Assembly (NCBI GenBank): GCA_022841915.1
Contig: JALHQN010000022.1
Span: 1,115-65,114 of the forward strand
Length of the DNA: 64,000 nt
Direction: 5' to 3'
From: Burkholderiales bacterium
GTDB taxonomy: Bacteria; Pseudomonadota; Gammaproteobacteria; Burkholderiales; WYBJ01
Notes under the pieces: model-generated
Told to the model about the DNA's origin: nothing
Databases searched by the model: none
Seen by the model: only the letters and a program-made list of their open reading frames with translations
Program-made: the position numbers and the translations under genes
Part shown: positions 1-30,688 of the stretch, piece after piece
Numbering within the stretch: the stretch's first letter is position 1
How the letters are laid out: every line of letters begins with the position of its first letter

Positions 1-294
1 CTTGACGTCGGTCAACAGGGCATCGGGCCCGTCGAACTGCTGCGCCAGGTAGCCTTTCAGCTCGCCCGGGCTGGTCACCACGTCCTGATTGACCATGGTG
101 ACGGTGAACTGGGGATGCAGATGGGGCAGCAGGGGATCGAGATTGCGCGTGTTGAAGGCTTCGGTGAAGGTTGCGAGCAGGGCGCGCAGCGCCTCGTGGT
201 CCTGCTTGTCCTCCGGGGAGAGCTCGGGCTGCGCCGCCTGAGCAAGCATCGTGGACAGGAGCATCGCTGCGGCGAAGGTACGAATGGGGATCAC
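1..294 (-). CDS. secreted NTF2/SnoaL-like domain protein, N-terminal part only (gene runs off the left edge)
   Basis: Minus-strand frame is open from the window edge up to GTG at 294-292. That GTG overlaps the TGA (293-291) of the upstream PAP2 gene (GTGA coupling). Translation is VIPIRTFAAAMLLSTMLAQAAQPELSPEDKQDHEALRALLATFTEAFNTRNLDPLLPHL..., a signal peptide followed by a SnoaL/DUF4440-like start. It is truncated, so it is not in the ORF track. Confidence 0.5.
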   Translation of the reverse strand, partial: MIPIRTFAAAMLLSTMLAQAAQPELSPEDKQDHEALRALLATFTEAFNTRNLDPLLPHLHPQFTVTMVNQDVVTSPGELKGYLAQQFDGPDALLTDVK

Positions 295-944
295 GGCACT
301 CTCCTCGGTAAGGCAGACCAACGACCATCGGGACTGACCGCGGCGCGCGCGACCAATGCTACAAGCATCCCGCCCGCCACGTCGAGCAGATGATGCTGAT
401 GCGTGAACACCACCGATGCGAGCAGAAGCGCGAGCCACGCATCGAAGACGTGTCGCAGCCATGCCGGCGAGGCCGCGCGCATGCTGCAGAGCAGGATCAG
501 ACTCCAGGAGACATGCAGCGACGGCGCGAGGTTGTGCGGCAGGTCGATTCGGTGAATGAGGCCGAGCGCGAAACCGGCCTGCGACCCCTGGGCCAGCCGC
601 GTGAAGCCGAGCTCGGCGGGAAAAAACAGAAAGCACGCGCCCGAGGCCACGGTCGCGAAGGCGAGCCGTCGACACAGGGCGTGGATGCGAGGCGCATCGA
701 GCACGAACATCGGCAGGAAGAAGCTTGCGAAGAGCGACAGGTACGCCCACGCCATCCAGGGCACCAGGGGAATCGCAAGCTCCCACTCGAACCACAGGCG
801 TAACCGATCGATGCGCTGGGTGCTCAGCCAGTTGAGACTGCCATAGACAGCGACGAAGAGGACGATCAGCAGTCCGGTCCAGCGCAAAGACAAGCTGATG
901 ACTTCGCCCTCGGGCCGCAATGTCCAGGCAGATGTCTGTCTCAT
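291..944 (-). CDS. PAP2-superfamily membrane phosphatase / phosphotransferase-like protein
   Basis: Only the last 217 codons of track ORF 291..3047(-) look real, starting at MRQTSAW (cat at 942-944). The protein has several hydrophobic helices. It carries PAP2-type motifs PSLHVSWS and THQHHLLDVAGG (PSGH / HxxxD variants). Confidence 0.7.
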   Translation of the reverse strand: MRQTSAWTLRPEGEVISLSLRWTGLLIVLFVAVYGSLNWLSTQRIDRLRLWFEWELAIPLVPWMAWAYLSLFASFFLPMFVLDAPRIHALCRRLAFATVASGACFLFFPAELGFTRLAQGSQAGFALGLIHRIDLPHNLAPSLHVSWSLILLCSMRAASPAWLRHVFDAWLALLLASVVFTHQHHLLDVAGGMLVALVARAAVSPDGRWSALPRRVP

Positions 945-1040
945 CGTGGTTGCCGGTCGATGCAACTGCCGCAAAGCGTCTGCCCAGCGCCGATACCGCG
1001 GGGGAGCTGTGCTACGCTTTCGCCGTCGAGGAGAGACGTC

Positions 1041-1820
1041 ATGCCCAAGTTCTGTGCCAATCTGACCATGCTGTTCAACGAAGTGCCGTTCCTGGATCGC
1101 TTCGAAGCGGCCCGTCGTGCGGGCTTCGAAGCCGTCGAGTATCTCTTTCCCTATGCGTATCCGAAAGAGCAACTGCTCGAGAAGCTGCGCGAGCACCGCC
1201 TCGTGCAGGTGCTCCACAACATGCCCGCCGGCAACTGGGAGCAAGGAGAGCGAGGGCTCGCCTGCTTGCCCGATCGCGTGGGCGAATTCCAGGCTGGTGT
1301 CGACGCAACCATCGAGTATGCGAGCGCGCTGGGCTGTGAACAGGTCAATTGTCTGGCCGGAATCGCGCCGGCAGGCGTCGCCCGTGAGCGATTGGAGCAG
1401 ACCTTCATCGACAATCTCAAGTTTGCAGCGCCCCGGTTTCGCGCGGCGGGGATCAAGCTCCTGATCGAAGCGATCAATACTCGCGACATTCCCGGATTCT
1501 TCCTCAACACCACGAAGCAGGCGGTCGGCATCATCGAAGCGGTCGGTTCGGACAATCTCTTCGTGCAATACGACATCTATCACATGCAGATCATGGAGGG
1601 GGATCTCGCGCCCACCATCGAGGCGAATCTTCCTCGCATCGCGCACATGCAGCTCGCCGACACCCCCGGCCGGCACGAGCCCGGCACCGGCGAGATCAAC
1701 TACCCGTTCTTGTTCGATGTCATCGACCGGCTCGGCTACTCGGGCTGGATCGGCTGCGAATACAAGCCCAAGGGCGCGACGGTCGACGGGCTGGGCTGGC
1801 TGCGTCGCTATCTTGCGTGA
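1041..1820 (+). CDS. hyi: hydroxypyruvate isomerase
   Basis: ATG 1041 follows GGAGAG. MPKFCANLTMLFNEVPFLDRFEAARRAGFEAVEY... is the typical Hyi N-terminus (xylose-isomerase-like TIM barrel). Length is 259 aa. Confidence 0.9.
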   Translation: MPKFCANLTMLFNEVPFLDRFEAARRAGFEAVEYLFPYAYPKEQLLEKLREHRLVQVLHNMPAGNWEQGERGLACLPDRVGEFQAGVDATIEYASALGCEQVNCLAGIAPAGVARERLEQTFIDNLKFAAPRFRAAGIKLLIEAINTRDIPGFFLNTTKQAVGIIEAVGSDNLFVQYDIYHMQIMEGDLAPTIEANLPRIAHMQLADTPGRHEPGTGEINYPFLFDVIDRLGYSGWIGCEYKPKGATVDGLGWLRRYLA

Positions 1821-1964
1821 TGCCCGTCGAGTCGGGCTGCGGACGATGACGACGAGCCAGCGTCCAGTGCGCGTGCGATCGAATTCTGGCCGTTTCCGTG
1901 AGGCGGGCCTGCGTGGCTCATCGGCAGCCGGGGCGCAAGTCGTGTCCAAGCAAAGCGCGTCGGC

Positions 1965-3236
1965 ATGAAGCCCGGCGACGCTCCCGCGCTGCTGCGCAGG
2001 ATGTTCGATGCTGCGGTTGCCGCGGCCCTGCCCGAGCATTGCCTGCCGAGTCGACTGCCTGCCCCGGGCCGCGGCCGCACGATCGTGGTCGGCGCCGGCA
2101 AGGCCTCGGCAGCCATGGCCGCAAGCCTGGAGCGGCATTGGCAAGGCGATCTCACGGGGCTCGTCGTGACCCGCTACGGCCATGCAGTGCCTTGCCGCAG
2201 CATCGAGATCGTGGAGGCGGCCCATCCGGTACCGGATGCCGCCGGGCGCTCCGCCGCGCAGCGCATCCTCGGCTTGGTGCAAGGGCTGAGCGCCGACGAT
2301 CTCGTCATCTGCCTCATTTCGGGCGGCGGCTCCTCCTTGCTGGCGTTGCCGGCGGCGGGCATCACGCTCGACGACAAGCAGGCGGTCAATCGCGCCCTGC
2401 TGCAGTCCGGGGCGAACATCGGTGAGATGAATTGCGTGCGCAAGCACCTGTCGGCCATCAAGGGCGGCCGGCTGGCAGTCGCGGCTCATCCTGCGCGGGT
2501 CGTGTCGCTGCTCATCTCCGATGTGCCAGGGGATGATCCTGCCGTCATCGCGTCCGGCCCCACGGTGCCCGATCCGACCACCTTCGAGGATGCGCAGGCA
2601 GTGCTGGCGAAGTATGCGATTCAGGCGCCGGCGAGTGTGGTGGCGCATCTGCAGCGCGCCGAGGACGAGACGCCCAAGCCGGGGGATGCGCGGTTGGCGC
2701 ATACCGAAACGGTGCTGGTATCGCGACCGCAGGACGCGCTGGTGGCGGCGGCCGCCGTGGCTCGTGCGGCAGGGGTGACGCCGTTGATCTTGGGCGACAG
2801 CATCGAGGGCGAGGCGCGCGAAGTGGCGACGGTCATGGCGGGCATCGCTCGCCAGGTGATTCGTCATGGCCAGCCGTCGGCGGCGCCCTGCGTGCTGCTC
2901 TCTGGTGGCGAGACCACGGTGACCGTGCGTGGCCAGGGGCGCGGCGGGCGCAACGCCGAGTTTGCGCTGGCATTGGCGCTCGCCCTGGATGGCCACCCGA
3001 ATGTGTGGGCGCTTGCCGGGGACACCGATGGCGTCGATGGCACGCAAGACAATGCCGGTTGCATTGTCTGCCCGGATGCTATCGAGCGCGCCTTGGCGCG
3101 AGGTTTGCGTCCCAAGCAGATGCTTCAGGACAATGACGGGTACGGCTTCTTCGCTGCGGTGGATGCCCTGGTGACGACGGGGCCCACGCTCACCAACGTG
3201 AACGACTTCCGCGCCATTCTCGTCTTGCCCGGGTGA
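1965..3236 (+). CDS. ttuD: glycerate 2-kinase / TtuD-type (MOFRL family, often annotated hydroxypyruvate reductase)
   Basis: 423 aa. Contains IVVGAGKASAAMA, ISGGGSSLL and GGETTVTVRGQGRGGRN motifs typical of MOFRL glycerate kinases. It sits next to hyi. Confidence 0.85.
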   Translation: MKPGDAPALLRRMFDAAVAAALPEHCLPSRLPAPGRGRTIVVGAGKASAAMAASLERHWQGDLTGLVVTRYGHAVPCRSIEIVEAAHPVPDAAGRSAAQRILGLVQGLSADDLVICLISGGGSSLLALPAAGITLDDKQAVNRALLQSGANIGEMNCVRKHLSAIKGGRLAVAAHPARVVSLLISDVPGDDPAVIASGPTVPDPTTFEDAQAVLAKYAIQAPASVVAHLQRAEDETPKPGDARLAHTETVLVSRPQDALVAAAAVARAAGVTPLILGDSIEGEAREVATVMAGIARQVIRHGQPSAAPCVLLSGGETTVTVRGQGRGGRNAEFALALALALDGHPNVWALAGDTDGVDGTQDNAGCIVCPDAIERALARGLRPKQMLQDNDGYGFFAAVDALVTTGPTLTNVNDFRAILVLPG

Positions 3237-4025: not shown

Positions 4026-4820
4026 TTAACGGCCCTGGAAGTTGGGCGCGCGCTTTTCCATGAAAGCCTTGACGCCTTCCTTCGAATCTTCGGTCTCGCG
4101 GCAGGTGTTCTGCGCATAAGTCTCGTATTCCAGGCCGGCGCGCAGGTCGCAGTCTTGGTTATGGTAGATCGCCCGCTTGGCGAGCCGGATGGCGATCGGC
4201 GGGCCGGAAGCGATCTTCTTCGCCAGTTCGTAGCTCTTGTTCATGAGCTCTTCCGGCGCGACCACCGCGTTGACGATTCCCAGACGATACGCTTCGGCCG
4301 CATCGATCGAATCGGCCGTGAAGATCAATTCGCAGGCTTTCGCAGTGCCCACGAGGCGAGGCAGGAACCACGTGCCGCCCCAGTCGGGATGCAGGCCCCG
4401 CTTGACGAATGCCTGACTGAATTTCGCGGCGCTGGAGGCGATCCGCATGTCGCACGCAAGCGCGAGATTGAATCCGGCGCCCGCGGCTGCGCCATTGACG
4501 GCGGCAATGATCGGCTTCGGACAATCGCGCATCGCCATGATGGTGATGTCCCGTGACGGGGCGATTTTCTCGCGCATGGGGGAGCCCGTGCCGGCCTTGT
4601 CGCGCTCGCTCATGTTCTTCACGTCGCCGCCCGAGCAGAAGCCGCGCCCCGCACCCGTGATCACGACCGCGCGGATATCGTCGTCCTGCGACACCTTCAC
4701 GATCGCATCGTAGAGATCTTCACGCAGCGTGCCGCCGAGGGCGTTGAGCCGCTCCGGCCGGTTCAGTGTCAGGGTGGCGATGCGGTCTTTGACCTCGTAG
4801 AGCAAGCATTCGTATGCCAT
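4026..4820 (-). CDS. enoyl-CoA hydratase/isomerase (crotonase) family protein
   Basis: 264 aa. Contains TLNRPERLNALG, ITGAGRGFCSGGD and the crotonase oxyanion-hole pattern. Confidence 0.9.
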   Translation of the reverse strand: MAYECLLYEVKDRIATLTLNRPERLNALGGTLREDLYDAIVKVSQDDDIRAVVITGAGRGFCSGGDVKNMSERDKAGTGSPMREKIAPSRDITIMAMRDCPKPIIAAVNGAAAGAGFNLALACDMRIASSAAKFSQAFVKRGLHPDWGGTWFLPRLVGTAKACELIFTADSIDAAEAYRLGIVNAVVAPEELMNKSYELAKKIASGPPIAIRLAKRAIYHNQDCDLRAGLEYETYAQNTCRETEDSKEGVKAFMEKRAPNFQGR

Positions 4821-4920: not shown

Positions 4921-5130
4921 TCAGCCAGCTAGTTTATCGATGTCTTTCGCGGAGGGAAATCGGCCTGTCGCATGACGTGAATACGCGAGATTGCCGTCGA
5001 CGAGGATATCGAACTGGCCGGAACGGCCGGGTTGGAGCTCGATCTCGGCGATACCGCGGCTATGCAGCGCATCCCTCACACGGAGGGCCTCGGGCCGATA
5101 GCCTCAAGCGCTGCAGTACTGGATGAGCAT
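4921..5130 (-). CDS. SelW/Rdx-family thioredoxin-fold protein with in-frame TGA (candidate selenocysteine, CxxU)
   Basis: Hand translation: MLIQYCSA-TGA-GYRPEALRVRDALHSRGIAEIELQPGRSGQFDILVDGNLAYSRHATGRFPSAKDIDKLAG-stop. The TGA is codon 9 (5106-5104). Family-typical residues (YCxxC/U, LxPGxxGxF, SRxxxGRFP) continue in frame after the TGA. GGAGG lies upstream. An alternative TTG start at 5136 is possible. Confidence 0.7.
5058..5103 (-). promoter_or_regulatory. candidate bacterial SECIS-like stem-loop immediately 3' of the in-frame UGA
   Basis: In the mRNA, an outer stem GGCUAU/AUAGCC starts directly after the UGA. It encloses an inner hairpin CCCUC-CGUGU-GAGGG (plus-strand 5073-5087). Confidence 0.45.
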
Positions 5131-5292
5131 CTTCAAGGCCGCCTCCGTTGCTCGTCATTGCCCGCAGGGTTGCTGGTTGCGGCATGGTAGCCGCTCGAGA
5201 CGCCGCCGGCAAAGCCCGTCGAACTGACCGGGAGGAACAGCGCCTATAATCCGTCGGCCTGAAATTGCGCTTTTCACTCAAAGGACCCTGCC

Positions 5293-6867
5293 ATGACCAA
5301 GAGCATCGACGCAAACACGCTGCAGCAGTGGCTACACGATGGCGCCGAGGTGGCGCTGATCGACGTGAGGGAAGCCGGTGAGTTCGGCGAGGGCCACCTG
5401 TTCTTCGCCGCGCCCGTACCTTACAGCCAGCTCGAGTTGGACATCGGGCGTCTGGTCCCCCGGCTGGGCACGCGTCTGGTCGTTCATGACGACGGTACCG
5501 ACGCACTGGCGACGCGGGCGATCGAGCGCCTGGAGGCGATGGGCTACAGCAACGTGCATCTGTTCCAGGGCGGCACGCGTGCTTGGGCCGCGGCCGGGTA
5601 TCCGGTCTACAAGGGGGTGAATCTGCCGAGCAAGACTTTCGGCGAGTTGGTGGAACATGCCTACGACACGCCCCGCGTGAGCGTGACTGAGCTCGACGCG
5701 ATGCTCAAGCGCGGGGACGACGTGATGGTGCTCGACGGCCGGACCTGGGCCGAGTACACGAAGATGAGCATCCCGAGCGGCATCTCCTGCCCTAACGGCG
5801 AGTTGGCGTATCGCGTCGGTCGCATCGTGAAGAATCCCAAGACCAAGATCGTGGTGAATTGCGCCGGTCGCACCCGCAGCATCCTGGGCGCGCAGACGTT
5901 GCGCAACTTCGGCGTCGAGAACCCGGTATATGCGCTGGAGAATGGTACCCAGGGCTGGTATCTGGCCGATCTGGAACTGGATCGCGGCGCTTCGCGCAAG
6001 TATCCGCAAGGTGAAGCGGGCGACGAGCTGCCCGCCTTGCAGGCGCGCGCGCGTGTTCTGGCAGAGCGGCACGGAGTCGGATACGTCGATGCGGCCCAGG
6101 TGAAGCAGTGGATCGCCGACGAGAGCCGCAACGTCTTTCTGTGCGATGTGCGTACACCCGAGGAGTTCGAGGCCGGTACGCTGCCGGGCGCTCAGCACAC
6201 GCCGGGCGGGCAGTTCATCCAGTCCACCGACCAGTACGTCGGCGTGCGCAATTCCCGCATCGTCGTCCTCGATGGCGAACTGGTTCGCGCGCCCGTGTGT
6301 GCAAGCTGGCTGGCGCAGATGGGACACGAGGTGTATGTCCTGCGTGAAGGTGTGAAAGCGAACATCGGCGTGCCGCCCGGTCCTCGGCCCAAGCTGCCCG
6401 CGGTCCCGAAGCTCGCACCCAGCGCGCTGGCGGCCTTCATGGGCGAAGGACGTTTGCTGGATCTGCGCGCCAGCTCGGCGTTCCGCAAGTCGCATGTCGA
6501 GGGGGCGCGCTGGAGCATACGGCCGGTGATCGCATCGCAGGTCGGCGCGGGACAGCCCATCGCGCTGCTCGCCGATGATCCCGTGATCGCGCAACTTGCC
6601 GCGATCGACCTGATGGCGGCCGGAGCGCGCGATGTCCGGTTGGTCGACGGTACCGTGGAGGATTGCGCGGCCGCGGGCTTGAAGCTCGCATCGACGCCCA
6701 ACGTGCCCGCTGATGCCGAGCGCATCGATTTCCTTTTCTTCGTTCACGACCGGCACGAAGGCAACAAGGAAGCTGCTCGCGGTTATCTCGCCTGGGAGAC
6801 GGGCCTGATCAAGCAACTGCACGAGTCCGAGCGGGCGAGCTTCCGCATCCCCTCGGCCGCGCACTGA
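5293..6867 (+). CDS. multi-domain rhodanese-like sulfurtransferase
   Basis: 524 aa with about four rhodanese-like modules. Only one has an active-site loop (VNCAGRTRS); the other loops lack the Cys. Confidence 0.85.
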   Translation: MTKSIDANTLQQWLHDGAEVALIDVREAGEFGEGHLFFAAPVPYSQLELDIGRLVPRLGTRLVVHDDGTDALATRAIERLEAMGYSNVHLFQGGTRAWAAAGYPVYKGVNLPSKTFGELVEHAYDTPRVSVTELDAMLKRGDDVMVLDGRTWAEYTKMSIPSGISCPNGELAYRVGRIVKNPKTKIVVNCAGRTRSILGAQTLRNFGVENPVYALENGTQGWYLADLELDRGASRKYPQGEAGDELPALQARARVLAERHGVGYVDAAQVKQWIADESRNVFLCDVRTPEEFEAGTLPGAQHTPGGQFIQSTDQYVGVRNSRIVVLDGELVRAPVCASWLAQMGHEVYVLREGVKANIGVPPGPRPKLPAVPKLAPSALAAFMGEGRLLDLRASSAFRKSHVEGARWSIRPVIASQVGAGQPIALLADDPVIAQLAAIDLMAAGARDVRLVDGTVEDCAAAGLKLASTPNVPADAERIDFLFFVHDRHEGNKEAARGYLAWETGLIKQLHESERASFRIPSAAH

Positions 6868-10709: not shown

Positions 10710-10917
10710 ACGCGCGATTGCTTGTCGAGGCCAGGGGCCTGTCGCCTGAGCGTGCCTGGCCTAGCAGATTTCCGGGGTGATCGCGGGGCGGGCGCCCTCA
10801 GGCGCACGATAGGCACATCGACGGGGTGTCTTCGCCGGCGAGGCCCTTGGATGGGGCATGCCCGTTCTTCCTTGCGAATCTCAACGCGCTGGTATGCATT
10901 TTGCGAGAATGGCACGC

Positions 10918-11490
10918 ATGAAGATCATGCTCTACGACGAGAATCCGGAACGGTCTCTGTTCCTGCGCATGACCCTGGAGCGCCTCGGTCACGAGATTGT
11001 CGCCGAGATCGCCAACGCGAGGCAGCTCTACGATGAGGTGCGCGCCCATTCTCCGGATGCGATCATCATCGACACCGACTCGCCCACGCGCGACACCCTG
11101 GAACACCTTTGCCTGATCACGGAAAGTTGTCCGCGGCCGATCGTCATGTTCACCCAGGACGCCAAGCGAGAGTCCATTCGCGAGGCGGTTCGCGCCGGGG
11201 TGACCGCGTACATCGTCGATGGTCTGGCTGCCGAGCGCATCGAGCCCATCATCGAAACCGCCGTGGCGCGTTTCGAAGCGTTCCAGTCGGTGCAGAACGA
11301 ACTGGCGAAGACGCGTAGCAAACTCTCCGAACGCAAGCTGGTCGACCGAGCCAAGGGCATCCTGATGAAGGAGAAGAAGGTCTCGGAAGAGGAGGCCTAT
11401 CGACTGCTGCGCACACTCGCGATGGATCGCAATGCGACCATCGGCTCGGTCTCGGAGCAGGTGATCGCGTTCGCGAAGCTGCTCAGCTGA
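10918..11490 (+). CDS. nasT: ANTAR-domain response regulator (nitrate/nitrite antiterminator NasT type)
   Basis: A receiver-like N-terminus is followed by a C-terminal ANTAR motif (ERKLVDRAKGILMKEKKVSEEEAYRLLRTLAMDRN). It sits directly upstream of the nitrate ABC transporter operon. The start could be 10909 or 10918. Confidence 0.85.
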   Translation: MKIMLYDENPERSLFLRMTLERLGHEIVAEIANARQLYDEVRAHSPDAIIIDTDSPTRDTLEHLCLITESCPRPIVMFTQDAKRESIREAVRAGVTAYIVDGLAAERIEPIIETAVARFEAFQSVQNELAKTRSKLSERKLVDRAKGILMKEKKVSEEEAYRLLRTLAMDRNATIGSVSEQVIAFAKLLS

Positions 11491-11638
11491 TTGCAGTCCT
11501 CCTGTGCACGGTTGGTGCATGCGCCGCGCGTGGTGCACTGCAATAGAGCATCGCGAAGATTCGACGCTCAATATCCCGGCAATACATCTCTCCAGTAAAA
11601 ACAGCGGCTTGTGGCGCTCGCGCTAGATCGGGACAGCG

Positions 11639-11654
11639 TGGCACGCGGCTTGCC
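11639..11654 (+). promoter_or_regulatory. sigma-54 (-24/-12) promoter of the nitrate assimilation operon
   Basis: TGGCAC-GCGGC-TTGC matches the TGGCAC-N5-TTGC consensus with exact spacing. It lies about 180 nt upstream of nasF. Confidence 0.6.
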
Positions 11655-11670
11655 TTATGACACATCGCAA

Positions 11671-11708
11671 GTCGGCCAACGGCGGTCGGCTTCAGAACAA
11701 GGGTGTTC
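11671..11708 (+). promoter_or_regulatory. ANTAR-target dual hexaloop hairpin motif in the nasF leader
   Basis: P1 is 11671-11690: stem GUCGGCC/GGUCGGC with loop AACGGC. P2 is 11695-11708: stem GAAC/GUUC with loop AAGGGU. Both hexaloops have A at position 1 and G at position 4. A 4-nt linker separates them. P2 overlaps the 5' arm of the downstream terminator. Confidence 0.6.
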
Positions 11709-11750
11709 GGGTTTGCGTGTATGCACGCGCAACCCTGACACCCTTTTTTT
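11701..11750 (+). terminator. intrinsic terminator (attenuator) in the nasF leader
   Basis: Long GC-rich hairpin GGGUGUUCGGGUUUGCGUG-UAUG-CACGCGCAACCCUGACACCC followed by UUUUUUU, located 84 nt before the nasF start. Confidence 0.7.
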
Positions 11751-11833
11751 ATGCGGCGAGCGGAGCAAGGCACAGGGGCCGGGTCGCACAGGCGCGATGT
11801 TCAAAGCAGCGAATCGAATAAGGGAATGATCAC

Positions 11834-13135
11834 ATGCACAGCAATGATGGCCTCACCGATGCTTCACGGCGTTCGATGATCAAGAGCGTCGCGGGGGTCG
11901 CGGCAGCAAGTCTGATCCCGAGCGGCTTCTCTACCGTGGCCAAAGCCAATCCCAAGCTGGAAACCACCGCAGCGAAGCTCGGCTTCATTGCGCTCACCGA
12001 TGCCGCACCTTTGTTCGTCGCCGATGAAAAAGGCTTCTTCAAGAAGCACGGGATGAGCAAGGTGGAGGTCGTAAAGCAGGCGTCCTGGGGGGCGACCCGC
12101 GACAATATCGTGCTCGGCTCAGAAAAGAACGGCATCGACGGTGCGCACATCCTCACGCCGATGCCTTATTTGATCAGCTCGGGGGCGATGACCGCGAACA
12201 ACGTGCCGACCCCCATGTATATCCTGGCGCGGCTCAACCTTGCGGGCCAGTGCATTTCCGTATCCAACGAGTTCGCGAGCCTCAAGATCGGTGTCGACAC
12301 CAAGCCGTTCAAGCCGGCGCTGATGGCGAAGAAGGCCAGCGGCAAGGCGATCAATGCGGCCATGACCTTCCCCGGCGGCACGCACGACATGTGGATACGC
12401 TACTGGATGGCTGCCGGTGGCATCGATCCCAATACCGACATCAACACCATCGTCGTGCCACCGGCGCAGATGGTCGCCAATATGAAGGTGGGCACGATGG
12501 ACACGTTTTGTGTCTGCGAGCCCTGGAATCACCAGCTGATCAACCAGAAGATCGGCTACACGGCGATCACCACCGGCGAGCTGTGGCACAACCATCCGGA
12601 GAAAGCCTTCGCGATGCGTGCGGCTTACGTCGACAAGCACCCGAATGCCACGATGGCGCTGATCAAGGCGGTGATGGAGGCGCAGATGTTCTGCGACGAT
12701 CCGAAGAACGCCCGCGAGGTGGCGGAGATCTGCTCGCGGCGCCGGTGGATCAACGCGCCGGTCGAGGACATCGCCGATCGCGTGCGCGGCGACTTCGATT
12801 ACGGCACCGGCCGGGTGGTCAAGAACAGCCCGCAGAAGATGCGCTACTGGAACGACTTTGCTTCGTATCCGTTCCAGAGTCATGACCTGTGGTTCCTGAC
12901 CGAGAACATTCGCTGGGGTTACCTGCCGCGCAAAACCGACATGAATGCGCTGATCAAGCAGGTCAATCGCGAGGATCTCTGGCGCAAGGCCGCGCAGGAA
13001 CTCGGCATACCGAAGGCGCAGATTCCGACCTCGACCTCGCGCGGCATCGAGACCTTTTTCGACGGCAAGGTGTTCGATCCCAGCAAACCCATGGCGTACC
13101 TCGACAGCCTGCAGATCAAGGCAATGAAGGGCTGA
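11834..13135 (+). CDS. nasF: nitrate ABC transporter substrate-binding protein (NrtA/NasF family, Tat signal)
   Basis: 433 aa. SRRSMIKSVAGVAAASLIP is a twin-arginine signal. The body is NrtA/CmpA-like. Confidence 0.9.
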   Translation: MHSNDGLTDASRRSMIKSVAGVAAASLIPSGFSTVAKANPKLETTAAKLGFIALTDAAPLFVADEKGFFKKHGMSKVEVVKQASWGATRDNIVLGSEKNGIDGAHILTPMPYLISSGAMTANNVPTPMYILARLNLAGQCISVSNEFASLKIGVDTKPFKPALMAKKASGKAINAAMTFPGGTHDMWIRYWMAAGGIDPNTDINTIVVPPAQMVANMKVGTMDTFCVCEPWNHQLINQKIGYTAITTGELWHNHPEKAFAMRAAYVDKHPNATMALIKAVMEAQMFCDDPKNAREVAEICSRRRWINAPVEDIADRVRGDFDYGTGRVVKNSPQKMRYWNDFASYPFQSHDLWFLTENIRWGYLPRKTDMNALIKQVNREDLWRKAAQELGIPKAQIPTSTSRGIETFFDGKVFDPSKPMAYLDSLQIKAMKG

Positions 13136-13174
13136 GCCAGCGCGACCGATCGACATCCCCATCAGGAGCTTGCC

Positions 13175-14137
13175 ATGAACACCACCGCAACCGTGGCCAC
13201 CGTCGCTGCGCCGCCGGAAACCTCGCTACGCAAGGCCGATGCCGTCACCGATCTCGGAGCGGTCGCCGCCGCGGCGACGAGTACCCCCGCGGTTGCGACC
13301 GCAGCCGCTCAACCGCCGACGCCTACCGCCAAACGTCGTCCCGCTTGGGTGGACGTGCTAGGTGACTGGGCGGGCAAGATCCTGCCGCCGCTCGTCACCG
13401 TGGCGGTGCTGCTGGGGATCTGGGAACTGGCGTCCAGCCAGGCAGGCGCCGCACTGCCCCCGCCGAGCAAGGTCATCAGCGACACCAAGGAGCTGATCCT
13501 CGACCCGTTCTTCAACAACGGGGGCAACGACGTCGGCATGGCCTGGCAACTGCTGGCGAGTCTCGAGCGCGTGCTCTACGGCTACTCGATCGCCGTGGTG
13601 GTGGGGATCTCGCTCGGTGTGCTGGTTGGCCAATTCGCGATCGCCATGCGCGGGCTGGATCCGATCTTCCAGGTGCTGCGCACGGTACCGCCGCTGGCCT
13701 GGTTGCCGATCGCGTTGGCGGGCTTTCGCGACGGCAACCCGTCGGCGATCTTCGTGATCTTCATCACCGCCGTGTGGCCGATCATCATCAACACGTCCAT
13801 AGGGATTCGCAACATCCCGAACGACTATCGCAACGTCGCCCGGGTGGTGCAGCTCAACGGCGTCGAGTACTTCTGGAAAATCATGATGCCGGCCGCAGCC
13901 CCCTACATCTTCTCCGGCCTGCGCATCGGCGTCGGCTTGTCCTGGCTCGCCATCGTGGCTGCGGAGATGTTGATCGGCGGCGTCGGTGTCGGATTTTTCA
14001 TCTGGGATGCCTGGAACTCCTCGCGCATCAGCGACATCGTCCTTGCATTGTTCTACGTCGGCATCGTGGGCTTCATTCTCGACCGGCTCGTTTCGTGGAT
14101 CGGCCGCATGGTCGCGCGAGGCAGCAGCGTGAGCTGA
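13175..14137 (+). CDS. nasE: nitrate ABC transporter permease
   Basis: 320 aa with a BPD_transp_1 permease core (EAA-like loop region) and an NrtB-like sequence. Confidence 0.9.
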   Translation: MNTTATVATVAAPPETSLRKADAVTDLGAVAAAATSTPAVATAAAQPPTPTAKRRPAWVDVLGDWAGKILPPLVTVAVLLGIWELASSQAGAALPPPSKVISDTKELILDPFFNNGGNDVGMAWQLLASLERVLYGYSIAVVVGISLGVLVGQFAIAMRGLDPIFQVLRTVPPLAWLPIALAGFRDGNPSAIFVIFITAVWPIIINTSIGIRNIPNDYRNVARVVQLNGVEYFWKIMMPAAAPYIFSGLRIGVGLSWLAIVAAEMLIGGVGVGFFIWDAWNSSRISDIVLALFYVGIVGFILDRLVSWIGRMVARGSSVS

Positions 14138-14199
14138 ACGCCGCCATGAAGATCTCCATCGTCACCCCGACCCTCAACGCAGCACCTAGGGAGCATCGC

Positions 14200-14991
14200 A
14201 TGAGCCAGTCCTTCCTTGAACTCAGTCTGGTATCGATGGTCTTCAAGACCCGACAAGGTCCGTTCCAGGCGCTTTCCAACGTCAACCTTCGCGTCGAAAA
14301 GGGCGAGTTCGTCACGCTGATCGGCCATTCGGGCTGCGGCAAGTCGACGCTGCTCAACATCATCGCCGGGCTCTACCGGTGCACCTCCGGCGGCGTGTTG
14401 CTCGAGGGACGCGAGGTCGATGAGCCGGGGCCGGACCGCGCGGTTGTGTTCCAGAACCACTCGCTGCTGCCGTGGCTGACGGCCTACGAGAACATCGAAC
14501 TCGCCGTCAAGAAAACCTCGGTCGGCAAACGCAACAAGGCCCAGATGCGCGACTGGGTACTGCACAACTTGAAGCTGGTGCAGATGGATCATGCGATGAA
14601 CAAGCGTCCCGAGGAGCTTTCCGGCGGCATGAAGCAGCGTGTCGGGATTGCGCGCGCGCTGGCGATGGAGCCGAAGGTGCTGCTGATGGACGAGCCTTTC
14701 GGCGCGCTCGATGCCCTGACCCGCGCGCGGCTGCAGGACGAACTGCTGCGCATCGTTGCCGACACAGGCAGTACCGTGGTCATGGTCACGCACGACGTCG
14801 ACGAAGCGGTGTTGTTGTCCGACCGGGTGGTGATGATGACCAACGGCCCGGCGGCCACGATCGGCGAGATTCTCGAGGTCAACCTGTCGCGGCCACGCGA
14901 GCGCTTGGCGCTCGCCACCGACGCGCGCTACCTCTCCGCGCGCAAGGCCGTGCTCGAGTTCCTCTACCAGAAACAACTGAAGGCGGCCTGA
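14200..14991 (+). CDS. nasD: nitrate ABC transporter ATP-binding protein
   Basis: ATG 14200 follows AGGGAG. Contains Walker A GHSGCGKST, signature LSGGMKQRV and Walker B LLMDEPFGALD. Confidence 0.9.
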   Translation: MSQSFLELSLVSMVFKTRQGPFQALSNVNLRVEKGEFVTLIGHSGCGKSTLLNIIAGLYRCTSGGVLLEGREVDEPGPDRAVVFQNHSLLPWLTAYENIELAVKKTSVGKRNKAQMRDWVLHNLKLVQMDHAMNKRPEELSGGMKQRVGIARALAMEPKVLLMDEPFGALDALTRARLQDELLRIVADTGSTVVMVTHDVDEAVLLSDRVVMMTNGPAATIGEILEVNLSRPRERLALATDARYLSARKAVLEFLYQKQLKAA

Positions 14992-15007
14992 TCCACGGCC
15001 GAACGAC

Positions 15008-17470
15008 ATGAACCAAGGCGATAAACTGCGATTGGTCTGCGTTGGCAACGGCATGGCCGGCATGCGCGCGCTGGAGGAGTTGCTCAAGCTCGCGCCGGAT
15101 CTCTACCAGATCACGGTGTTCGGCGCCGAGCCGCACCCGAACTACAATCGCATCCTGCTCTCGCCCGTGCTGGCCGGAGAGCAGACGCTGCCCGAAATCG
15201 TACTGAACGATCTCGACTGGTACCGCACCAACGGCATCGAACTTCACCTCGGCAAGAAGATCGCGGCGATCGATCGCGTCAAGCGCGTGGTGCGCGCCGA
15301 GGACGGGACCGTCGCACCCTACGATCGGCTGTTGCTGGCGACCGGCTCCAATCCGATACTGCTGCCGATACCCGGCATGCAACTGCCAGGGGTGCTGACC
15401 TATCGCGACATCGCCGATACCGAAGGCATGATCGCCGCCGCCAGACAGTACAAGCATGCGGTCGTCATCGGGGGGGGGCTACTCGGTCTCGAAGCGGCCA
15501 ACGGCCTCAAACTGCGGGGCATGGACGTCACCGTGGTGCACCTGGCCGAGTGGCTGATGGAACGCCAGCTCGACCGCACCGCAGCCGGTCTGCTGCAGAA
15601 GTCGCTGGAAAGCAAAGGTCTGCAGTTTCGCGTTGGGACGCAGACTGCAGAGATCGTGGCGGGCGAATCGGGCCGCGTCGCTGCCGTGAAGTTCAAGGAT
15701 GGTTCTGCCGTCCCCGCCGAGCTCGTCGTCGTCGCCATCGGCATCCGTCCCAACACGGCGCTGGCCGAACAAGCCGGCCTGCACTGCAATCGGGGCATCG
15801 TCGTCAACGATACGATGCAGACCTACGATCCACGCATCTATGCCGTCGGCGAATGCGCCAACCACCGGGGTATCGCCTACGGCCTGGTCGCCCCGCTGTT
15901 CGACATGGCGAAGGTCTGCGCCAATCACCTGGCACAGATGGGCATCGGCCGCTATACCGGTTCTCTCACTTCGACCAAGCTCAAGGTCACCGGCATCGAT
16001 CTGTTCAGCGCGGGCAACTTCCAGGGGGGCGAGGGCACCGAGGACATCACCCTTTCCGACCCGATCCGCGGCATCTACAAACGCCTGGTGATCAAGGACG
16101 ACAAGCTGATCGGGAGCGTTCTCTACGGGGATACCGTCGACGGCGCGTACTACTTCAAGCTGCTGCGGGATGGGCGCAAGATCGCGGACATCCGCGACAA
16201 GCTGATGTTCGGCGAATCCAATCTCGGCGATACCGGGCACCAGGGCCAGAACAAGGCCGCCGCGATGAGCGACGAGATGGAAGTCTGCGGCTGCAACGGC
16301 GTATGCAAGGGCAGCATCGTCAAGGCGATCAAGGAGCAGGGGCTGTTCACGCTCGACGACGTGCGCAAGCACACGAAAGCGTCGAGTTCATGTGGTTCCT
16401 GCACCGGATTGGTCGAACAGATCCTCATGTTCACCGCCGGCGGCGATTACTCCGCGCCGCCGGCGGTGAAACCGATGTGCGGCTGCACCGACCGGACTCA
16501 CGCCGAGGCCCGCGCCGCAATCCGGGACCACGAGCTGCTTTCGATCTCGGCGGTGATGAAGTTTCTCGAGTGGCGCACGCCGAACGGCTGCGCGAGCTGC
16601 CGGCCCGCAATCAACTATTACCTGATCTCGACCTGGCCGCGGCGCGCCAAGGACGACCCGCAATCGCGCTTCATCAACGAACGCGCCCACGCCAACATCC
16701 AGAAGGACAGCACCTACTCCGTGATCCCACGAATGTGGGGCGGGGTCACCACGGCAGCCGAGCTGCGTCGCATCGCTGATGTCGTCGACAAGTACCGGAT
16801 TCCCACGGTGAAGGTGACCGGCGGCCAGCGCATCGACTTGCTCGGCGTGAAGAAGGAAGACTTGCCGTCGGTGTGGCGCGACCTCGACATGCCCTCGGGC
16901 CATGCGTACGCCAAGGCGCTGCGCACGGTGAAGACCTGCGTCGGCTCCGAGTGGTGTCGCTTCGGCGTGCAGAATTCGACCAAGATGGGCCAGGACCTCG
17001 AACGCGGTCTGTGGCGCATGTATGCGCCGCACAAGGTCAAGCTCGCGGTATCGGGATGTCCGCGCAACTGTGCCGAATCGGGCATCAAGGATGTCGGCGT
17101 CATCGGCGTCGAATCGGGTTGGGAGATCTACGTCGCGGGCAACGGCGGCATCAAGACCGAAGTCGCGCAATTCCTGGTCAAGGTGAAGACGGCGCAGGAA
17201 GTCATGGAGTATTCCAGCGCCTTCCTGCAGCTTTATCGGGAGGAAGGCTGGTACCTCGAACGCACGGTGCACTACGTGCACCGCGTTGGTCTCGACTATG
17301 TGAAGCAGCGCATTCTCGACGATGCCGAGGGGCGCAAGGCCCTGTACGAGCGGCTGCTCCATGCGCTCAAGGACGAACCGGATCCGTGGGCCGAGCGGGT
17401 GGCAGGTGCCGATCGCGCGCAGTTCGTGCCGCTGCGGCCGGTCGCGGCCGAGGAGGGCGCGACGACATGA
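15008..17470 (+). CDS. nirB: NAD(P)H-dependent assimilatory nitrite reductase large subunit
   Basis: 820 aa. It has an FAD/NAD Rossmann N-terminus, a BFD-like 2Fe-2S motif (CGCNGVCKG...CGSCTG) and a sirohaem/4Fe-4S domain (TCVGSEWCRFG...SGCPRNC). Confidence 0.95.
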   Translation: MNQGDKLRLVCVGNGMAGMRALEELLKLAPDLYQITVFGAEPHPNYNRILLSPVLAGEQTLPEIVLNDLDWYRTNGIELHLGKKIAAIDRVKRVVRAEDGTVAPYDRLLLATGSNPILLPIPGMQLPGVLTYRDIADTEGMIAAARQYKHAVVIGGGLLGLEAANGLKLRGMDVTVVHLAEWLMERQLDRTAAGLLQKSLESKGLQFRVGTQTAEIVAGESGRVAAVKFKDGSAVPAELVVVAIGIRPNTALAEQAGLHCNRGIVVNDTMQTYDPRIYAVGECANHRGIAYGLVAPLFDMAKVCANHLAQMGIGRYTGSLTSTKLKVTGIDLFSAGNFQGGEGTEDITLSDPIRGIYKRLVIKDDKLIGSVLYGDTVDGAYYFKLLRDGRKIADIRDKLMFGESNLGDTGHQGQNKAAAMSDEMEVCGCNGVCKGSIVKAIKEQGLFTLDDVRKHTKASSSCGSCTGLVEQILMFTAGGDYSAPPAVKPMCGCTDRTHAEARAAIRDHELLSISAVMKFLEWRTPNGCASCRPAINYYLISTWPRRAKDDPQSRFINERAHANIQKDSTYSVIPRMWGGVTTAAELRRIADVVDKYRIPTVKVTGGQRIDLLGVKKEDLPSVWRDLDMPSGHAYAKALRTVKTCVGSEWCRFGVQNSTKMGQDLERGLWRMYAPHKVKLAVSGCPRNCAESGIKDVGVIGVESGWEIYVAGNGGIKTEVAQFLVKVKTAQEVMEYSSAFLQLYREEGWYLERTVHYVHRVGLDYVKQRILDDAEGRKALYERLLHALKDEPDPWAERVAGADRAQFVPLRPVAAEEGATT

Positions 17471-17796
17471 GCGCATGGCTGAAAGTCTGCACGCTCGACG
17501 ACATTCCCCTGCTTGGCGCGCGCGTCGTGCGCCGCGACGGCGAGCCCGACATCGCCGTGTTCCGCACCGCCGAGGACACGGTGTTCGCCTTGGAGGATCG
17601 CTGCCCGCACAAAGGCGGGGCGCTCTCGCAGGGCATCGTCTGCGGCAACAAGGTCGCCTGTCCGCTGCACAACTGGAACATCGCACTCGACAGCGGCTGC
17701 GCGATCGCCCCCGACAACGGCAGCACGAGAACGTATCCGGTCAAGGTCGAGGCCGGCATGGTGCTGCTCGCCATCGAGCAGCACGCCGATGCCTGA
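17467..17796 (+). CDS. nirD: nitrite reductase small subunit (Rieske-like)
   Basis: Its ATG overlaps the nirB stop (ATGA). The sequence MSAWLKVCTLDDIPLLGARVV...CPHKGGALSQG...CPLHNW is NirD-typical. Confidence 0.9.
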   Translation: MSAWLKVCTLDDIPLLGARVVRRDGEPDIAVFRTAEDTVFALEDRCPHKGGALSQGIVCGNKVACPLHNWNIALDSGCAIAPDNGSTRTYPVKVEAGMVLLAIEQHADA

Positions 17797-24893: not shown

Positions 24894-25048
24894 ATCGGTT
24901 CCTCGTGCATCGGTGGGTGTGAAGGACAGCCAAAGGGTACACGATTCGTCCCTTTCCTCGTACGTGGGGCGCGGCACTGTCCACGTGCGCCGGGCTGGAC
25001 GCCTTCCCGGCCTGTCGAGGACGGGCTTGCCGGTGCGGGCGCAGCGGT

Positions 25049-25237
25049 TCAGGCCCCGGGAGCGCCGGGCGATTTTCTGGCGGGCAGGGCGCGCAGGACG
25101 GCGAGCTTTTGGCTGTCGTTCAGGATCGACCAGTCCGCAATCTCGTCCAGCGTGCGATGACAGCCGGCGCAGAGCCCGGTGTCCGCATCGATCTGGCAGA
25201 CGTCGATGCATGGGGAGGTGATCGGTGGATGTTGCAT
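25049..25237 (-). CDS. DUF1289-type small Cys-rich (putative Fe-S) protein
   Basis: MQHPPITSPCIDVCQIDADTGLCAGCHRTLDEIADW is the typical DUF1289 CxxxC...CxxC pattern. Length is 62 aa. Confidence 0.7.
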   Translation of the reverse strand: MQHPPITSPCIDVCQIDADTGLCAGCHRTLDEIADWSILNDSQKLAVLRALPARKSPGAPGA

Positions 25238-28336: not shown

Positions 28337-28438
28337 GGGTCGAATCTCTAAGGAAAGTCTGGTGCCAGGACGGCGAGCGCCGATTTTCGCGCGATTCCGT
28401 CCGCAAGAGAATGCGCGTGTACGCGCTTCGCCGCCCGC

Positions 28439-30045
<1,607 letters not shown>

Positions 30046-30046
<1 letters not shown>

Positions 30047-30648: not shown

Positions 30649-30688
30649 GACGGTATCCTTGTCTCGGAGCGGGGTGGGGAGCGGCTGG

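What the first reader, a model, noticed from the sequence alone, without database searches (positions are those of the whole stretch)
4921..5130. Hidden SelW/Rdx-like gene with in-frame TGA (candidate selenoprotein) in an apparently empty 470-bp gap
On the minus strand, ATG at 5130-5128 has GGAGG upstream; an alternative TTG lies at 5136. It opens a frame reading MLIQYCSA-TGA-GYRPEALRVRDALHSRGIAEIELQPGRSGQFDILVDGNLAYSRHATGRFPSAKDIDKLAG-TGA. If the internal TGA (5106-5104) were a true stop, the product would be 8 aa. Yet the residues after it retain the hallmarks of the Rdx (SelW/SelT/SelH) thioredoxin-like family. Compare the family pattern I-x-Y-C-x-x-C/U....L.....L.PG..G.F.....D.....SR...GRFP. 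The TGA sits exactly where the second redox Cys/Sec of the CxxC/CxxU motif belongs. Directly after the UGA the mRNA can form GGCUAU...AUAGCC enclosing CCCUC-CGUGU-GAGGG (plus coordinates 5058-5103), in the position expected for a bacterial SECIS. The divergent neighbour (5293-6867) is a multi-rhodanese protein, and rhodanese domains take part in S/Se trafficking. The ORF track misses the gene because of the TGA.
Basis: partly seen in the sequence, partly recalled or inferred. Interest (0 to 1): 0.7.

Follow-up and report, generated by a model that had tools for sequence, protein, structure and literature searches.

The report
Missed SelW-like selenoprotein gene with SECIS
The apparently empty gap holds a real 71-codon gene for a small SelW-like (Rdx family) redox protein whose in-frame TGA almost certainly encodes selenocysteine; this is a well-known bacterial selenoprotein family that ordinary gene finders cut short, so the find is correct but ordinary.

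Summary
On the minus strand, 5136→4921 encodes MKMLIQYCSA-U-GYRPEALRV…KLAG (71 codons, with TGA at 5106-5104). With Cys at the TGA it scores above the curated cutoffs of Pfam Rdx and TIGR02174 CXXU_selWTH. All 87 related sequences examined (83 distinct, including the window's own) carry TGA at the same codon. They come from Reyranella, Enhydrobacter, Vineibacter, Burkholerales MAGs and others. More distant homologues carry CxxC at that position. dN/dS downstream of the TGA is 0.20-0.25. Codons +6 to +10 after the TGA are frozen at synonymous sites (GCC, CTC, CGK, GTG and the rare AGG). They form the hairpin CCCUC-CGUGU-GAGGG (5087-5073), which has the geometry of a bacterial SECIS. In two relatives the orthologue lies beside selC, selB and selA. 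Three corrections apply. The start is the TTG at 5136, not the ATG at 5130. The outer stem is clade-specific and only weakly supported. The rhodanese neighbour is lineage-local synteny, not a family-wide link. The window is a drinking-water metagenome contig, so its own Sec machinery could not be checked. The family has been known since 2005, so the novelty is a new member of a known kind and interest is low to moderate.

The parts
4921..5136 (-). SelW-like / Rdx-family selenoprotein gene: 71 codons plus stop, TTG start, product MKMLIQYCSAUGYRPEALRVRDALHSRGIAEIELQPGRSGQFDILVDGNLAYSRHATGRFPSAKDIDKLAG
   Evidence: sequence. PF10262, 59.4 bits. TIGR02174, 45.1 bits against a cutoff of 34.2; dN/dS 0.20-0.25. 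PDB Rdx-fold homologues.
5142..5146 (-). Shine-Dalgarno GGAGG, 5 nt upstream of the TTG start
   Evidence: A GGAGG/GGAG sits in the same place in the relatives L087, L088 and L009.
5134..5136 (-). Start codon TTG, preferred over the ATG at 5130-5128
   Evidence: the closest relatives read TTG-AAG-GTG-CTC, and the family N-terminus is M-K-V-L-I; strain variants change ATG 5130 to GTG but keep the TTG.
5104..5115 (-). CxxU redox motif: Cys codon TGC 5115-5113 and Sec codon TGA 5106-5104
   Evidence: TGA in 87/87 related sequences; the TGA aligns with the second Cys of CxxC in solved Rdx structures and in the Cys-form homologue P0035.
5073..5087 (-). Core SECIS hairpin CCCUC-CGUGU-GAGGG (nt +20 to +34 from the U of UGA; loop at 5082-5078)
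   Evidence: synonymous sites are frozen (GCC 78/78, CTC 78/78, CGT/CGG only, GTG 77/77, AGG 54/54); the consensus fold, and the 18-36 pair covaries in the Lys class; unchanged in strain variants.
5058..5103 (-).
   Evidence: present in the window's minimum-energy fold; 19/24 sequences of the window's class have an enclosing stem (5.2 pairs against 3.4 in the control), and the Reyranella class does not; broken in the X3 strain variant.
4921..4923 (-). Genuine stop codon TGA of the selenoprotein gene
   Evidence: TGA is also the stop of 18 of 27 Pfam-supported genes in the window.
5293..6867 (+). Divergent neighbour: 524-aa protein with four rhodanese domains (context only, not shown to be part of the system)
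   Evidence: PF00581 in 4 stretches; adjacent only in close relatives (L001/2, L007, L009, L088, probably L087).
4026..4820 (-). Downstream same-strand neighbour: enoyl-CoA hydratase, 100 nt after the selenoprotein stop; possibly co-transcribed (context only)
   Evidence: ECH_1; adjacency conserved in close relatives; no terminator-like site between the two genes.

Best explanation
The gap contains a functional gene for a 71-residue SelW-like (Rdx family, thioredoxin-like fold) selenoprotein. Translation starts at the TTG at 5136. When the ribosome reaches UGA at codon 11, the hairpin just downstream in the mRNA acts as a bacterial SECIS. Its core is CCCUC-CGUGU-GAGGG at 5087-5073, and in this clade it is probably extended by a lower stem that begins 1 nt after the UGA. 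The SECIS recruits SelB-GTP-Sec-tRNA(Sec), so selenocysteine is inserted instead of terminating. The product carries a Cys8-x-x-Sec11 redox centre, at the position where solved Rdx-fold structures have their CxxC motif. It most likely acts as a small thiol/selenol oxidoreductase whose substrate is unknown. Shown here: family membership, conservation of the TGA, selection on both sides of it, RNA-level constraint on the hairpin, and physical linkage of orthologues to selA-selB-selC in two relatives. Inferred: actual Sec insertion in this organism, the SelB-SECIS interaction, and the redox function.
For: Family: PF10262 at 59.4 bits against a cutoff of 22.6, and TIGR02174 CXXU_selWTH at 45.1 against 34.2. 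PDB sequence matches are to Rdx-fold structures 2LJK, 2FA8, 2OKA, 2OBK, 2OJL, 3DEX, 2P0G and 2NPB, and in the three printed alignments (2LJK, 2FA8, 2OKA) the TGA aligns to the second Cys of CxxC. Conserved UGA: 87/87 related sequences (83 distinct, the window's own included) have TGA at that codon, and none has Cys. All 12 close database homologues are fragments called after the TGA, and JGI names five of them 'predicted Rdx family selenoprotein' or similar. Sec/Cys pair: among the best 150 representative homologues, 126 are N-terminally truncated, 12 are full-length CxxC and 5 are CxxW, which is TGA misread as Trp. P0035 aligns without gaps at 47% identity, with Cys opposite the TGA. Selection: dN/dS is 0.20-0.25 downstream of the TGA against five relatives, and a co-occurring strain shows 10 synonymous against 4 non-synonymous changes. 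SECIS: codons +6 to +10 have invariant synonymous sites and atypical codons, while other invariant residues vary freely. The consensus hairpin appears in 50 of 71 individual minimum-energy folds. The loop begins 21 nt after the UGA and has G at loop position 2. Pair 18-36 covaries G-C (11) / A-U (8) in the Lys class. Machinery: tRNA-Sec lies 11 nt after the orthologue's stop in L028 and about 0.9 kb away in L051, followed by selB (416 and 399 bits against a cutoff of 242) and selA (421 bits against 268). TGA is the usual stop in the window, in 18 of 27 genes. A freshwater metatranscriptome contig from a relative spans the start, the TGA and the SECIS. Literature: SelW-like is an established bacterial CXXU selenoprotein family with few or no Cys homologues in Sec-using organisms (PMC1088965, PMC1794560).
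Against: No selA, selB, selC or selD and no tRNA gene were found in the 64-kb window. The window is a metagenome contig, so the organism's Sec machinery is unverified. The hairpin's folding energy is no better than shuffles (z = 0.39). No Rfam family matches it. The core helix is invariant in the window's class, so it offers no covariation there. The outer stem is not conserved in the Reyranella class or in the X3 strain variant. There is no protein-level evidence of selenium incorporation.
Confidence: 0.9

Rival explanations
1. Decayed pseudogene: a former Cys-form Rdx gene whose TGC/TGT mutated to TGA, leaving an 8-10 aa stub and a drifting remnant.
For: No Sec machinery is visible in the window. 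Gene callers do not call the full gene.
Against: TGA sits at the identical codon in 87/87 related sequences from distinct species. dN/dS is 0.20-0.25 after the TGA. There are no frameshifts or extra stops. Synonymous sites in the hairpin are frozen. Strain variants show 10 synonymous against 4 non-synonymous changes.
Confidence: 0.01
2. The gene is an intact selenoprotein gene by descent, but this particular organism has recently lost selABCD, so the gene is silent here or makes only a 10-residue peptide.
For: The Sec machinery could not be examined, because the window is a metagenome contig. The literature documents frequent loss of the Sec trait in bacteria (PMC1794560).
Against: The gene, the TGA and the SECIS are intact and identical across four independent assemblies and in diverged co-occurring strains, with a mostly synonymous pattern of change. 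After loss of the machinery the gene would be expected to decay or convert to Cys.
Confidence: 0.05
3. The downstream part is a separate small protein that starts at the GTG inside ALRV, as gene callers predict (52-aa 'VRDALHS...'). The upstream YCSA-TGA is then a short leader ORF and no Sec is inserted.
For: Gene-calling pipelines output exactly these 43-59 aa fragments.
Against: The 10 codons upstream are conserved in frame with the family's beta1-CxxU signature (I-x-Y-C-x-x-U) in all related sequences. They align to the N-termini of full-length CxxC homologues and solved structures. The fragment would lack strand beta1 and the redox centre of the Rdx fold. The Shine-Dalgarno sequence precedes the TTG at 5136, not the internal GTG.
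Confidence: 0.02
4. The UGA is read through without selenium, either by near-cognate Trp-tRNA or by Cys mis-charged on tRNA(Sec), or TGA is reassigned in this organism.
For: Some database entries show W at this position (P0065, P0096, P0153).
Against: Those W entries are explained by gene callers using a code in which TGA means Trp. In the window, TGA terminates 18 of 27 Pfam-supported genes, including this gene itself. A dedicated conserved hairpin and linkage to selC/selB/selA in relatives point to SelB-dependent decoding.
Confidence: 0.02

Closest known systems
Bacterial SelW-like selenoproteins (Rdx family PF10262; NCBIfam TIGR02174 CXXU_selWTH), described in the Sargasso Sea and bacterial selenoproteome surveys (PMC1088965, PMC1794560)
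   Same: Small size (about 70 aa). CxxU motif near the N-terminus. Scores above both curated cutoffs. A SECIS hairpin directly after the UGA with a small G-containing apical loop. Sec forms predominate and Cys forms are rare.
   Different: Nothing essential. This clade (I-x-Y-C-x-x-U-G-Y-K/R-P-E/Q-A-L-R-V … G-K/R-S-G-Q-F-D … T-G-R-F-P) occurs in Reyranella and its relatives and in Burkholderiales from soil, freshwater and drinking-water samples. Its SECIS core is unusually invariant.
Cys-form bacterial Rdx proteins with solved structures (Atu0228 2FA8, 2OKA, 2OBK, 2OJL, 3DEX, 2P0G)
   Same: Homologous over nearly the full length (E 7e-6 to 1e-3), with the same position of the redox motif.
   Different: They carry CxxC instead of CxxU, are about 100-108 aa with extra C-terminal sequence, and have no SECIS.
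Mammalian selenoprotein W (2NPB) and MIEN1/C17orf37 (2LJK)
   Same: Same Rdx fold family. SelW also uses CxxU.
   Different: Eukaryotic SelW uses a 3'-UTR SECIS with SBP2/eEFSec. Here the SECIS lies inside the coding region immediately after the UGA, which is the bacterial SelB mechanism. MIEN1 is a Cys form.
E. coli fdhF SECIS, the paradigm bacterial SECIS (from established knowledge, not tested here)
   Same: A stem-loop in the coding sequence immediately 3' of the UGA, with a small apical loop containing G/U that SelB is known to contact, and comparable spacing.
   Different: Different sequence, no Rfam model matches, and a bulged U was not identified here.
NCBIfam NF041051 SelTWH_Campy (equivalog)
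   Same: It is the best-scoring NCBIfam model (69.2 bits).
   Different: The score is below that model's cutoff of 88, so the gene is not a member of that specific equivalog group.

Membership tests
Rdx family (Pfam PF10262) / TIGR02174 CXXU_selWTH | Profile score above the curated gathering cutoff | tested here: met
   PF10262: 59.4 bits against 22.6, E = 3.9e-16, residues 3-65 on profile positions 4-69 of 74. TIGR02174: 45.1 bits against 34.2. The query had Cys substituted at the TGA.
Rdx family (Pfam PF10262) / TIGR02174 CXXU_selWTH | CxxC/CxxU redox motif near the N-terminus, after the first beta-strand | tested here: met
   The motif is Y-C-S-A-U. The TGA aligns with the second Cys of CxxC in the printed alignments to 2LJK, 2FA8 and 2OKA and in the Cys form P0035.
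Rdx family (Pfam PF10262) / TIGR02174 CXXU_selWTH | Thioredoxin-like Rdx fold | not testable with these tools
The fold is inferred only from sequence homology to solved Rdx structures.
Bacterial selenoprotein gene (SelB/SECIS-dependent UGA decoding) | In-frame UGA conserved among orthologues, with coding conservation on both sides | tested here: met
   TGA in 87/87 related sequences. The upstream I-x-Y-C-x-x and downstream G-Y-K/R-P-x-A-L-R-V are conserved. dN/dS is 0.20-0.25 downstream.
Bacterial selenoprotein gene (SelB/SECIS-dependent UGA decoding) | Cys at the homologous position in some homologues (a Sec/Cys pair) | tested here: met
   12 full-length CxxC forms are among the best 150 representative homologues. 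The alignment to P0035 is gapless.
Bacterial selenoprotein gene (SelB/SECIS-dependent UGA decoding) | Stem-loop immediately downstream of the UGA with a small apical loop containing G (bacterial SECIS, as described in PMC1088965) | tested here: met
   A 5-bp hairpin with the 5-nt loop CGUGU, starting 16 nt after the UGA, with the loop 21 nt after it. Synonymous sites are frozen over exactly this stretch. The folding energy alone is not significant, and there is no Rfam match.
Bacterial selenoprotein gene (SelB/SECIS-dependent UGA decoding) | selA, selB, selC (tRNA-Sec) and selD present in the same genome | not testable with these tools
   The window is a metagenome contig, and none are present in its 64 kb. 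In the relatives L028 and L051, selC, selB and selA (the last only in L028) lie next to the orthologue. Laying the source metagenome on L051 selC-selB was uninformative.
Bacterial selenoprotein gene (SelB/SECIS-dependent UGA decoding) | Selenium actually incorporated at the UGA position | not testable with these tools
   This requires 75Se labelling or mass spectrometry.
NCBIfam NF041051 SelTWH_Campy (equivalog) | Score above the equivalog cutoff (88 bits) | tested here: not met
   69.2 bits. The gene is related to this equivalog group but is not a member of it.

The most novel reading that the evidence does not exclude
In this Burkholderiales-like lineage the SelW-like selenoprotein and the divergently transcribed four-rhodanese protein might form a dedicated persulfide/selenide relay, with a shared 156-bp control region, possibly coupled to the downstream enoyl-CoA hydratase. 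That would give a first physiological partner for a bacterial SelW-like protein. Alternatively, the near-invariant SECIS and the occasional adjacency to selA-selB-selC might mark this clade as a horizontally mobile 'Sec starter' gene that travels with the machinery.
Probability: 0.08. Interest if true: 0.5.

Novelty: new member of a known kind. Interest (0 to 1): 0.25.

Why it matters
It corrects the annotation. A 472-bp 'empty' gap is in fact a selenoprotein gene, and public gene callers systematically truncate this clade to 43-59 aa fragments, or mistranslate the UGA as Trp. The comparison yields a clean consensus for the clade: protein motif, start codon and a 15-nt invariant SECIS core (CCCUCCGUGUGAGGG). 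That consensus could be used to re-annotate hundreds of orthologues in Reyranella, Enhydrobacter, Vineibacter and Burkholderiales genomes. It also flags their hosts, which come from soil, freshwater and drinking-water samples, as likely Sec users. It does not reveal a new mechanism or family. The physiological role of bacterial SelW-like proteins remains unknown, and this locus does not resolve it.

Tried and rejected
(1) Thermodynamic significance of the hairpin: z = 0.39 against shuffles, so energy was dropped as evidence and replaced by synonymous-site analysis.

(2) Rfam at gathering and permissive thresholds gave no match.

(3) Sec machinery in the window: no tRNA, and no SelA, SelB or SelD among about 45 ORFs scanned with Pfam.

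(4) Attributing Sec machinery to the source organism by laying the source metagenome (X1, X2) on a relative's selC-selB region gave only short multi-organism matches to the GTPase domain and was uninformative.

(5) A family-wide rhodanese link was rejected. The rhodanese adjacency occurs only in L001/2, L007, L009, L088 and probably L087. The Reyranella massiliensis locus L044 is instead flanked by an aldo-keto reductase and a 2-hydroxyacid dehydrogenase, and most Reyranella loci have flanking ORFs at the same relative positions.

On retesting it is enriched in the window's class but is not universal and is broken in a strain variant.

(7) Looking up RefSeq names for the full-length U-containing proteins failed because the tool rejects 'U'.

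(9) A scan of the window for other conserved in-frame TGA candidates gave only noise from GC-rich antisense frames and no CxxU/UxxC contexts.

(10) The long multi-stretch hits in the profile search (P0018 and others) are compositional false positives.

(11) No sigma-70-like promoter and no intrinsic terminator were found around the gene.

Full report
OBSERVATION. GGAGG is at 5146-5142, TTG at 5136-5134, ATG at 5130-5128 and an in-frame TGA at 5106-5104. Sixty further sense codons then run to a TGA stop at 4923-4921. The gene sits in the 472-bp gap between an enoyl-CoA hydratase gene (4026-4820, minus strand) and a gene for a four-rhodanese-domain protein (5293-6867, plus strand). The mechanical ORF list shows only two spurious overlapping ORFs there.

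FAMILY. With Cys substituted at the TGA, the product scores 59.4 bits on Pfam Rdx PF10262 (cutoff 22.6, E = 3.9e-16) and 45.1 bits on TIGR02174 CXXU_selWTH (cutoff 34.2). It stays below the cutoff of the Campylobacter-type equivalog NF041051 (69.2 against 88). A sequence search of the PDB finds only Rdx-fold proteins: MIEN1 2LJK, Atu0228 2FA8, 2OKA, 2OBK 'SelT/SelW/SelH domain', 2OJL, 3DEX, 2P0G and mouse SelW 2NPB. In the three printed alignments (2LJK, 2FA8, 2OKA) the TGA codon aligns with the second Cys of CxxC.

IS THE TGA A SEC CODON? The twelve closest database proteins are all 43-59 aa fragments that start after the TGA. JGI names five of them 'predicted Rdx family selenoprotein' or similar. 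Reading upstream in their contigs shows the same frame and the same TGA. A scan of one genome per species returned 80 loci. They come from Reyranella (including R. massiliensis 521), Enhydrobacter aerosaccus ATCC 27094, Vineibacter terrae, many Burkholderiales MAGs, Casimicrobiaceae and others. Counting these loci, the metagenome loci and the window itself, 87 of 87 sequences (83 distinct) have TGA at the identical codon. The context is I-x-Y/F-C-x-x-TGA-G/N-Y-K/R-P-E/Q-A-L-R-V, and none has Cys.

A profile search of 1.84 billion representative proteins shows the classic Sec/Cys picture. Of the best 150 hits, 126 are N-terminally truncated fragments and 12 are full-length CxxC forms. Five show 'CxxW', which is a TGA translated as Trp by a caller using another genetic code. 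Six are compositional false positives. The Cys form P0035 aligns without gaps at 47% identity, with Cys opposite the TGA.

Against five relatives, dN/dS downstream of the TGA is 0.20-0.25. TGA is the ordinary stop of 18 of 27 Pfam-supported genes in the window, so there is no codon reassignment. Independent assemblies from four metagenome runs reproduce the TGA. A co-occurring strain about 10% diverged shows 10 synonymous and 4 non-synonymous changes, and none falls in the TGA. The pseudogene reading is therefore excluded.

SECIS. Folding energy is uninformative in this GC-rich sequence (z = 0.39), and no Rfam model matches. The decisive evidence is codon-level (78 gap-free sequences). In codons +6 to +10 after the TGA, Ala is GCC in 78/78, Leu is CTC in 78/78 and Arg is CGT (68) or CGG (10), never CGC. 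Val is GTG in 77/77 and Arg is AGG in 54/54. Elsewhere in the same genes, invariant residues vary freely, and CGC and GTC dominate (for example Arg column 43 has CGC in 66/78, and Val column 33 has GTC in 56/60).

The frozen stretch forms CCCUC-CGUGU-GAGGG, which is nt +20 to +34 counted from the U of UGA, or window 5087-5073. It is a 5-bp helix with a 5-nt loop that has G at loop position 2 and starts 21 nt after the UGA. [quoted passage not shown] From my own knowledge it also matches the spacing window used by bSECISearch.

In the subclass with Lys (AAG) at codon +10, the helix is re-registered and its closing pair 18-36 covaries, G-C in 11 sequences and A-U in 8. The hairpin appears in the individual minimum-energy fold of 50 of 71 sequences. 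Strain variants leave 5073-5087 untouched.

An enclosing lower stem is predicted in 19 of 24 sequences of the window's class, averaging 5.2 pairs against 3.4 in shuffled controls. It is not predicted in the Reyranella class (1.3 against 2.3), and the X3 strain variant breaks several of its pairs. I therefore regard it as an optional, clade-specific extension.

START CODON. The closest relatives read TTG-AAG-GTG-CTC-ATC, and the family N-terminus is M-K-V-L-I. GGAGG lies 5 nt before the TTG. Strain variants change the ATG at 5130 to GTG but keep the TTG. The gene is therefore 5136→4921, with 71 codons, Cys8 and Sec11.

SEC MACHINERY. The window has no tRNA gene, and Pfam scans of about 45 ORFs show none of the sel genes. 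The window is a contig from a drinking-water metagenome: runs X1 and X2 hold 100% of its sampled words. Its genome therefore cannot be inspected, and an attempt to use the source metagenome was uninformative.

In two relatives the orthologue lies next to the machinery. In L028 (Betaproteobacteria MAG) tRNA-Sec starts 11 nt after the gene's stop. It is followed by selB (TIGR00475, 416 bits against a cutoff of 242) and selA (TIGR00474, 421 bits against 268). In L051 (Burkholderiales MAG) tRNA-Sec and selB (399 bits) lie about 0.9 kb downstream. A freshwater metatranscriptome contig from a relative (about 88% identical) spans 4992-5136, showing that an orthologue is transcribed.

CONTEXT. The rhodanese-Rdx-hydratase arrangement is found only in the window's closest relatives. 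These are L001/L002, L007 and L009 (both Burkholderiales MAGs), L088 and probably L087, with rhodanese 71-79% and hydratase 81-85% identical. It is absent from the other roughly 75 loci. The Reyranella massiliensis locus L044 is flanked by an aldo-keto reductase and a 2-hydroxyacid dehydrogenase, and most Reyranella loci have flanking ORFs at the same relative positions. The adjacency is therefore explained by recent common descent and gives no independent support for a functional S/Se link. These relatives suggest, by inference only, that the source organism is a Burkholderiales-like betaproteobacterium.

COMPARISON AND NOVELTY. SelW-like proteins with a CXXU motif were the most abundant selenoprotein family in the Sargasso Sea survey. 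They are listed among bacterial families that have few or no Cys homologues in Sec-using organisms (PMC1088965, PMC1794560). Curated models exist for them (PF10262, TIGR02174). This locus is a new, unannotated member of that known family. Its mechanism, SelB with a coding-region SECIS, is the standard bacterial one. Interest is low to moderate. The value lies in correcting the annotation and in a clean clade consensus for the protein, the start codon and the SECIS core.

VERDICT. The finding is real and was correctly interpreted. My confidence that this is a genuine SelW-like selenoprotein gene with a functional SECIS is 0.9. The main residual doubt is whether this particular uncultured organism still has the Sec machinery.

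Noticed in passing
window 40965-64000 (+), probable start ATG 41211: A giant open reading frame of at least 7,600 codons runs off the end of the window, so the ORF listing does not list it. GC3 is 0.83 and the product is rich in Ala, Gly, Val and Thr. The N-terminus contains [10 protein letters not shown]. The distal part has 11 RTX calcium-binding repeat stretches plus beta-helix/NosD-like regions, while the first 5,000 residues match no Pfam family and there are no DNA tandem repeats. It looks like a giant secreted RTX-type adhesin. A PEP-CTERM protein gene (40403-41017) lies just upstream.
   Followed up: partly
window 40905-63995 (-) and 291-3047 (-): A string of long minus-strand ORFs (841, 526, 988, 572, 616, 1117, 485, 803, 644 and 918 aa) has no Pfam hits, GC1 above GC3 and Arg/Gly/Ala-rich products. 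They are antisense shadow ORFs of real plus-strand genes: the giant gene, and at 960-1820 and 1965-3236 an AP_endonuc_2 protein and a DUF4147/MOFRL glycerate-kinase-like protein.
   Followed up: yes
L028:710-3816 and L051:3001-6190: In two Burkholderiales/Betaproteobacteria MAGs the SelW-like gene is immediately adjacent to tRNA-Sec (selC) and selB, and in L028 also to selA, arranged convergently. This is an unusual physical linkage of a selenoprotein gene with the Sec-insertion operon.
   Followed up: partly
proteins P0065, P0096, P0114, P0135, P0153 (public protein collections): Full-length family members are deposited with Trp (W) at the Sec position (for example MKISIEYCSRWNYKPEALRV…). The UGA was translated with a code in which TGA means Trp. 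Most other entries are N-terminally truncated fragments. This is a systematic mis-annotation of the clade.
   Followed up: partly
L044 and L055 (Reyranella massiliensis 521 and a related MAG): The orthologue carries a 5-residue tandem duplication (LEKLG-LEKLG / LERLG-LEKPG) shortly after the SECIS-encoding segment. It is the only indel seen in the first 40 codons of the family.
   Followed up: no
window 4987-5350, runs X3 and X6: At least two strains of the same organism co-occur in the drinking-water and oil-sands metagenomes. The variant allele differs at about 10% of positions across the gene and the intergenic region, with 10 synonymous and 4 non-synonymous changes in the gene. The TGA, the TTG start and the core hairpin are untouched.
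   Followed up: yes
window 10858-20506 (+): A complete-looking assimilatory nitrate/nitrite cluster: an ANTAR response regulator (NasT-like), an NMT1_2/NrtA-like binding protein, an ABC ATPase, a NirB-type nitrite reductase (820 aa) and a molybdopterin nitrate reductase with a C-terminal BFD-like 2Fe-2S domain (997 aa). The same ANTAR and NMT1_2 genes are near the Rdx gene in L001.
   Followed up: no
window 23488-24069 (-) and 24315-25211 (-): Two adjacent paralogous DUF2889 proteins (193 and 298 aa) lie next to a DUF445 protein (25335-26576). These are uncharacterised families.
   Followed up: no
window 26625-31924 (-) and 36865-38103 (-): A leucine/isovalerate catabolism-like set: HMG-CoA lyase-like, enoyl-CoA hydratase, carboxyltransferase, thiolase and acyl-CoA dehydrogenase. 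It is followed by a gamma-glutamyltranspeptidase (34008-35897), a BNR/sortilin-repeat protein (32359-33885), a ThiS-like small protein (32088-32345) and a PhaC PHA synthase (38362-40260).
   Followed up: no
window 4992-5136, run X23: A freshwater metatranscriptome holds a low-depth (2.8) 151-nt transcript contig, about 88% identical, covering the start, the UGA and the SECIS of an orthologue. The downstream hydratase gene is also represented in four metatranscriptomes.
   Followed up: partly
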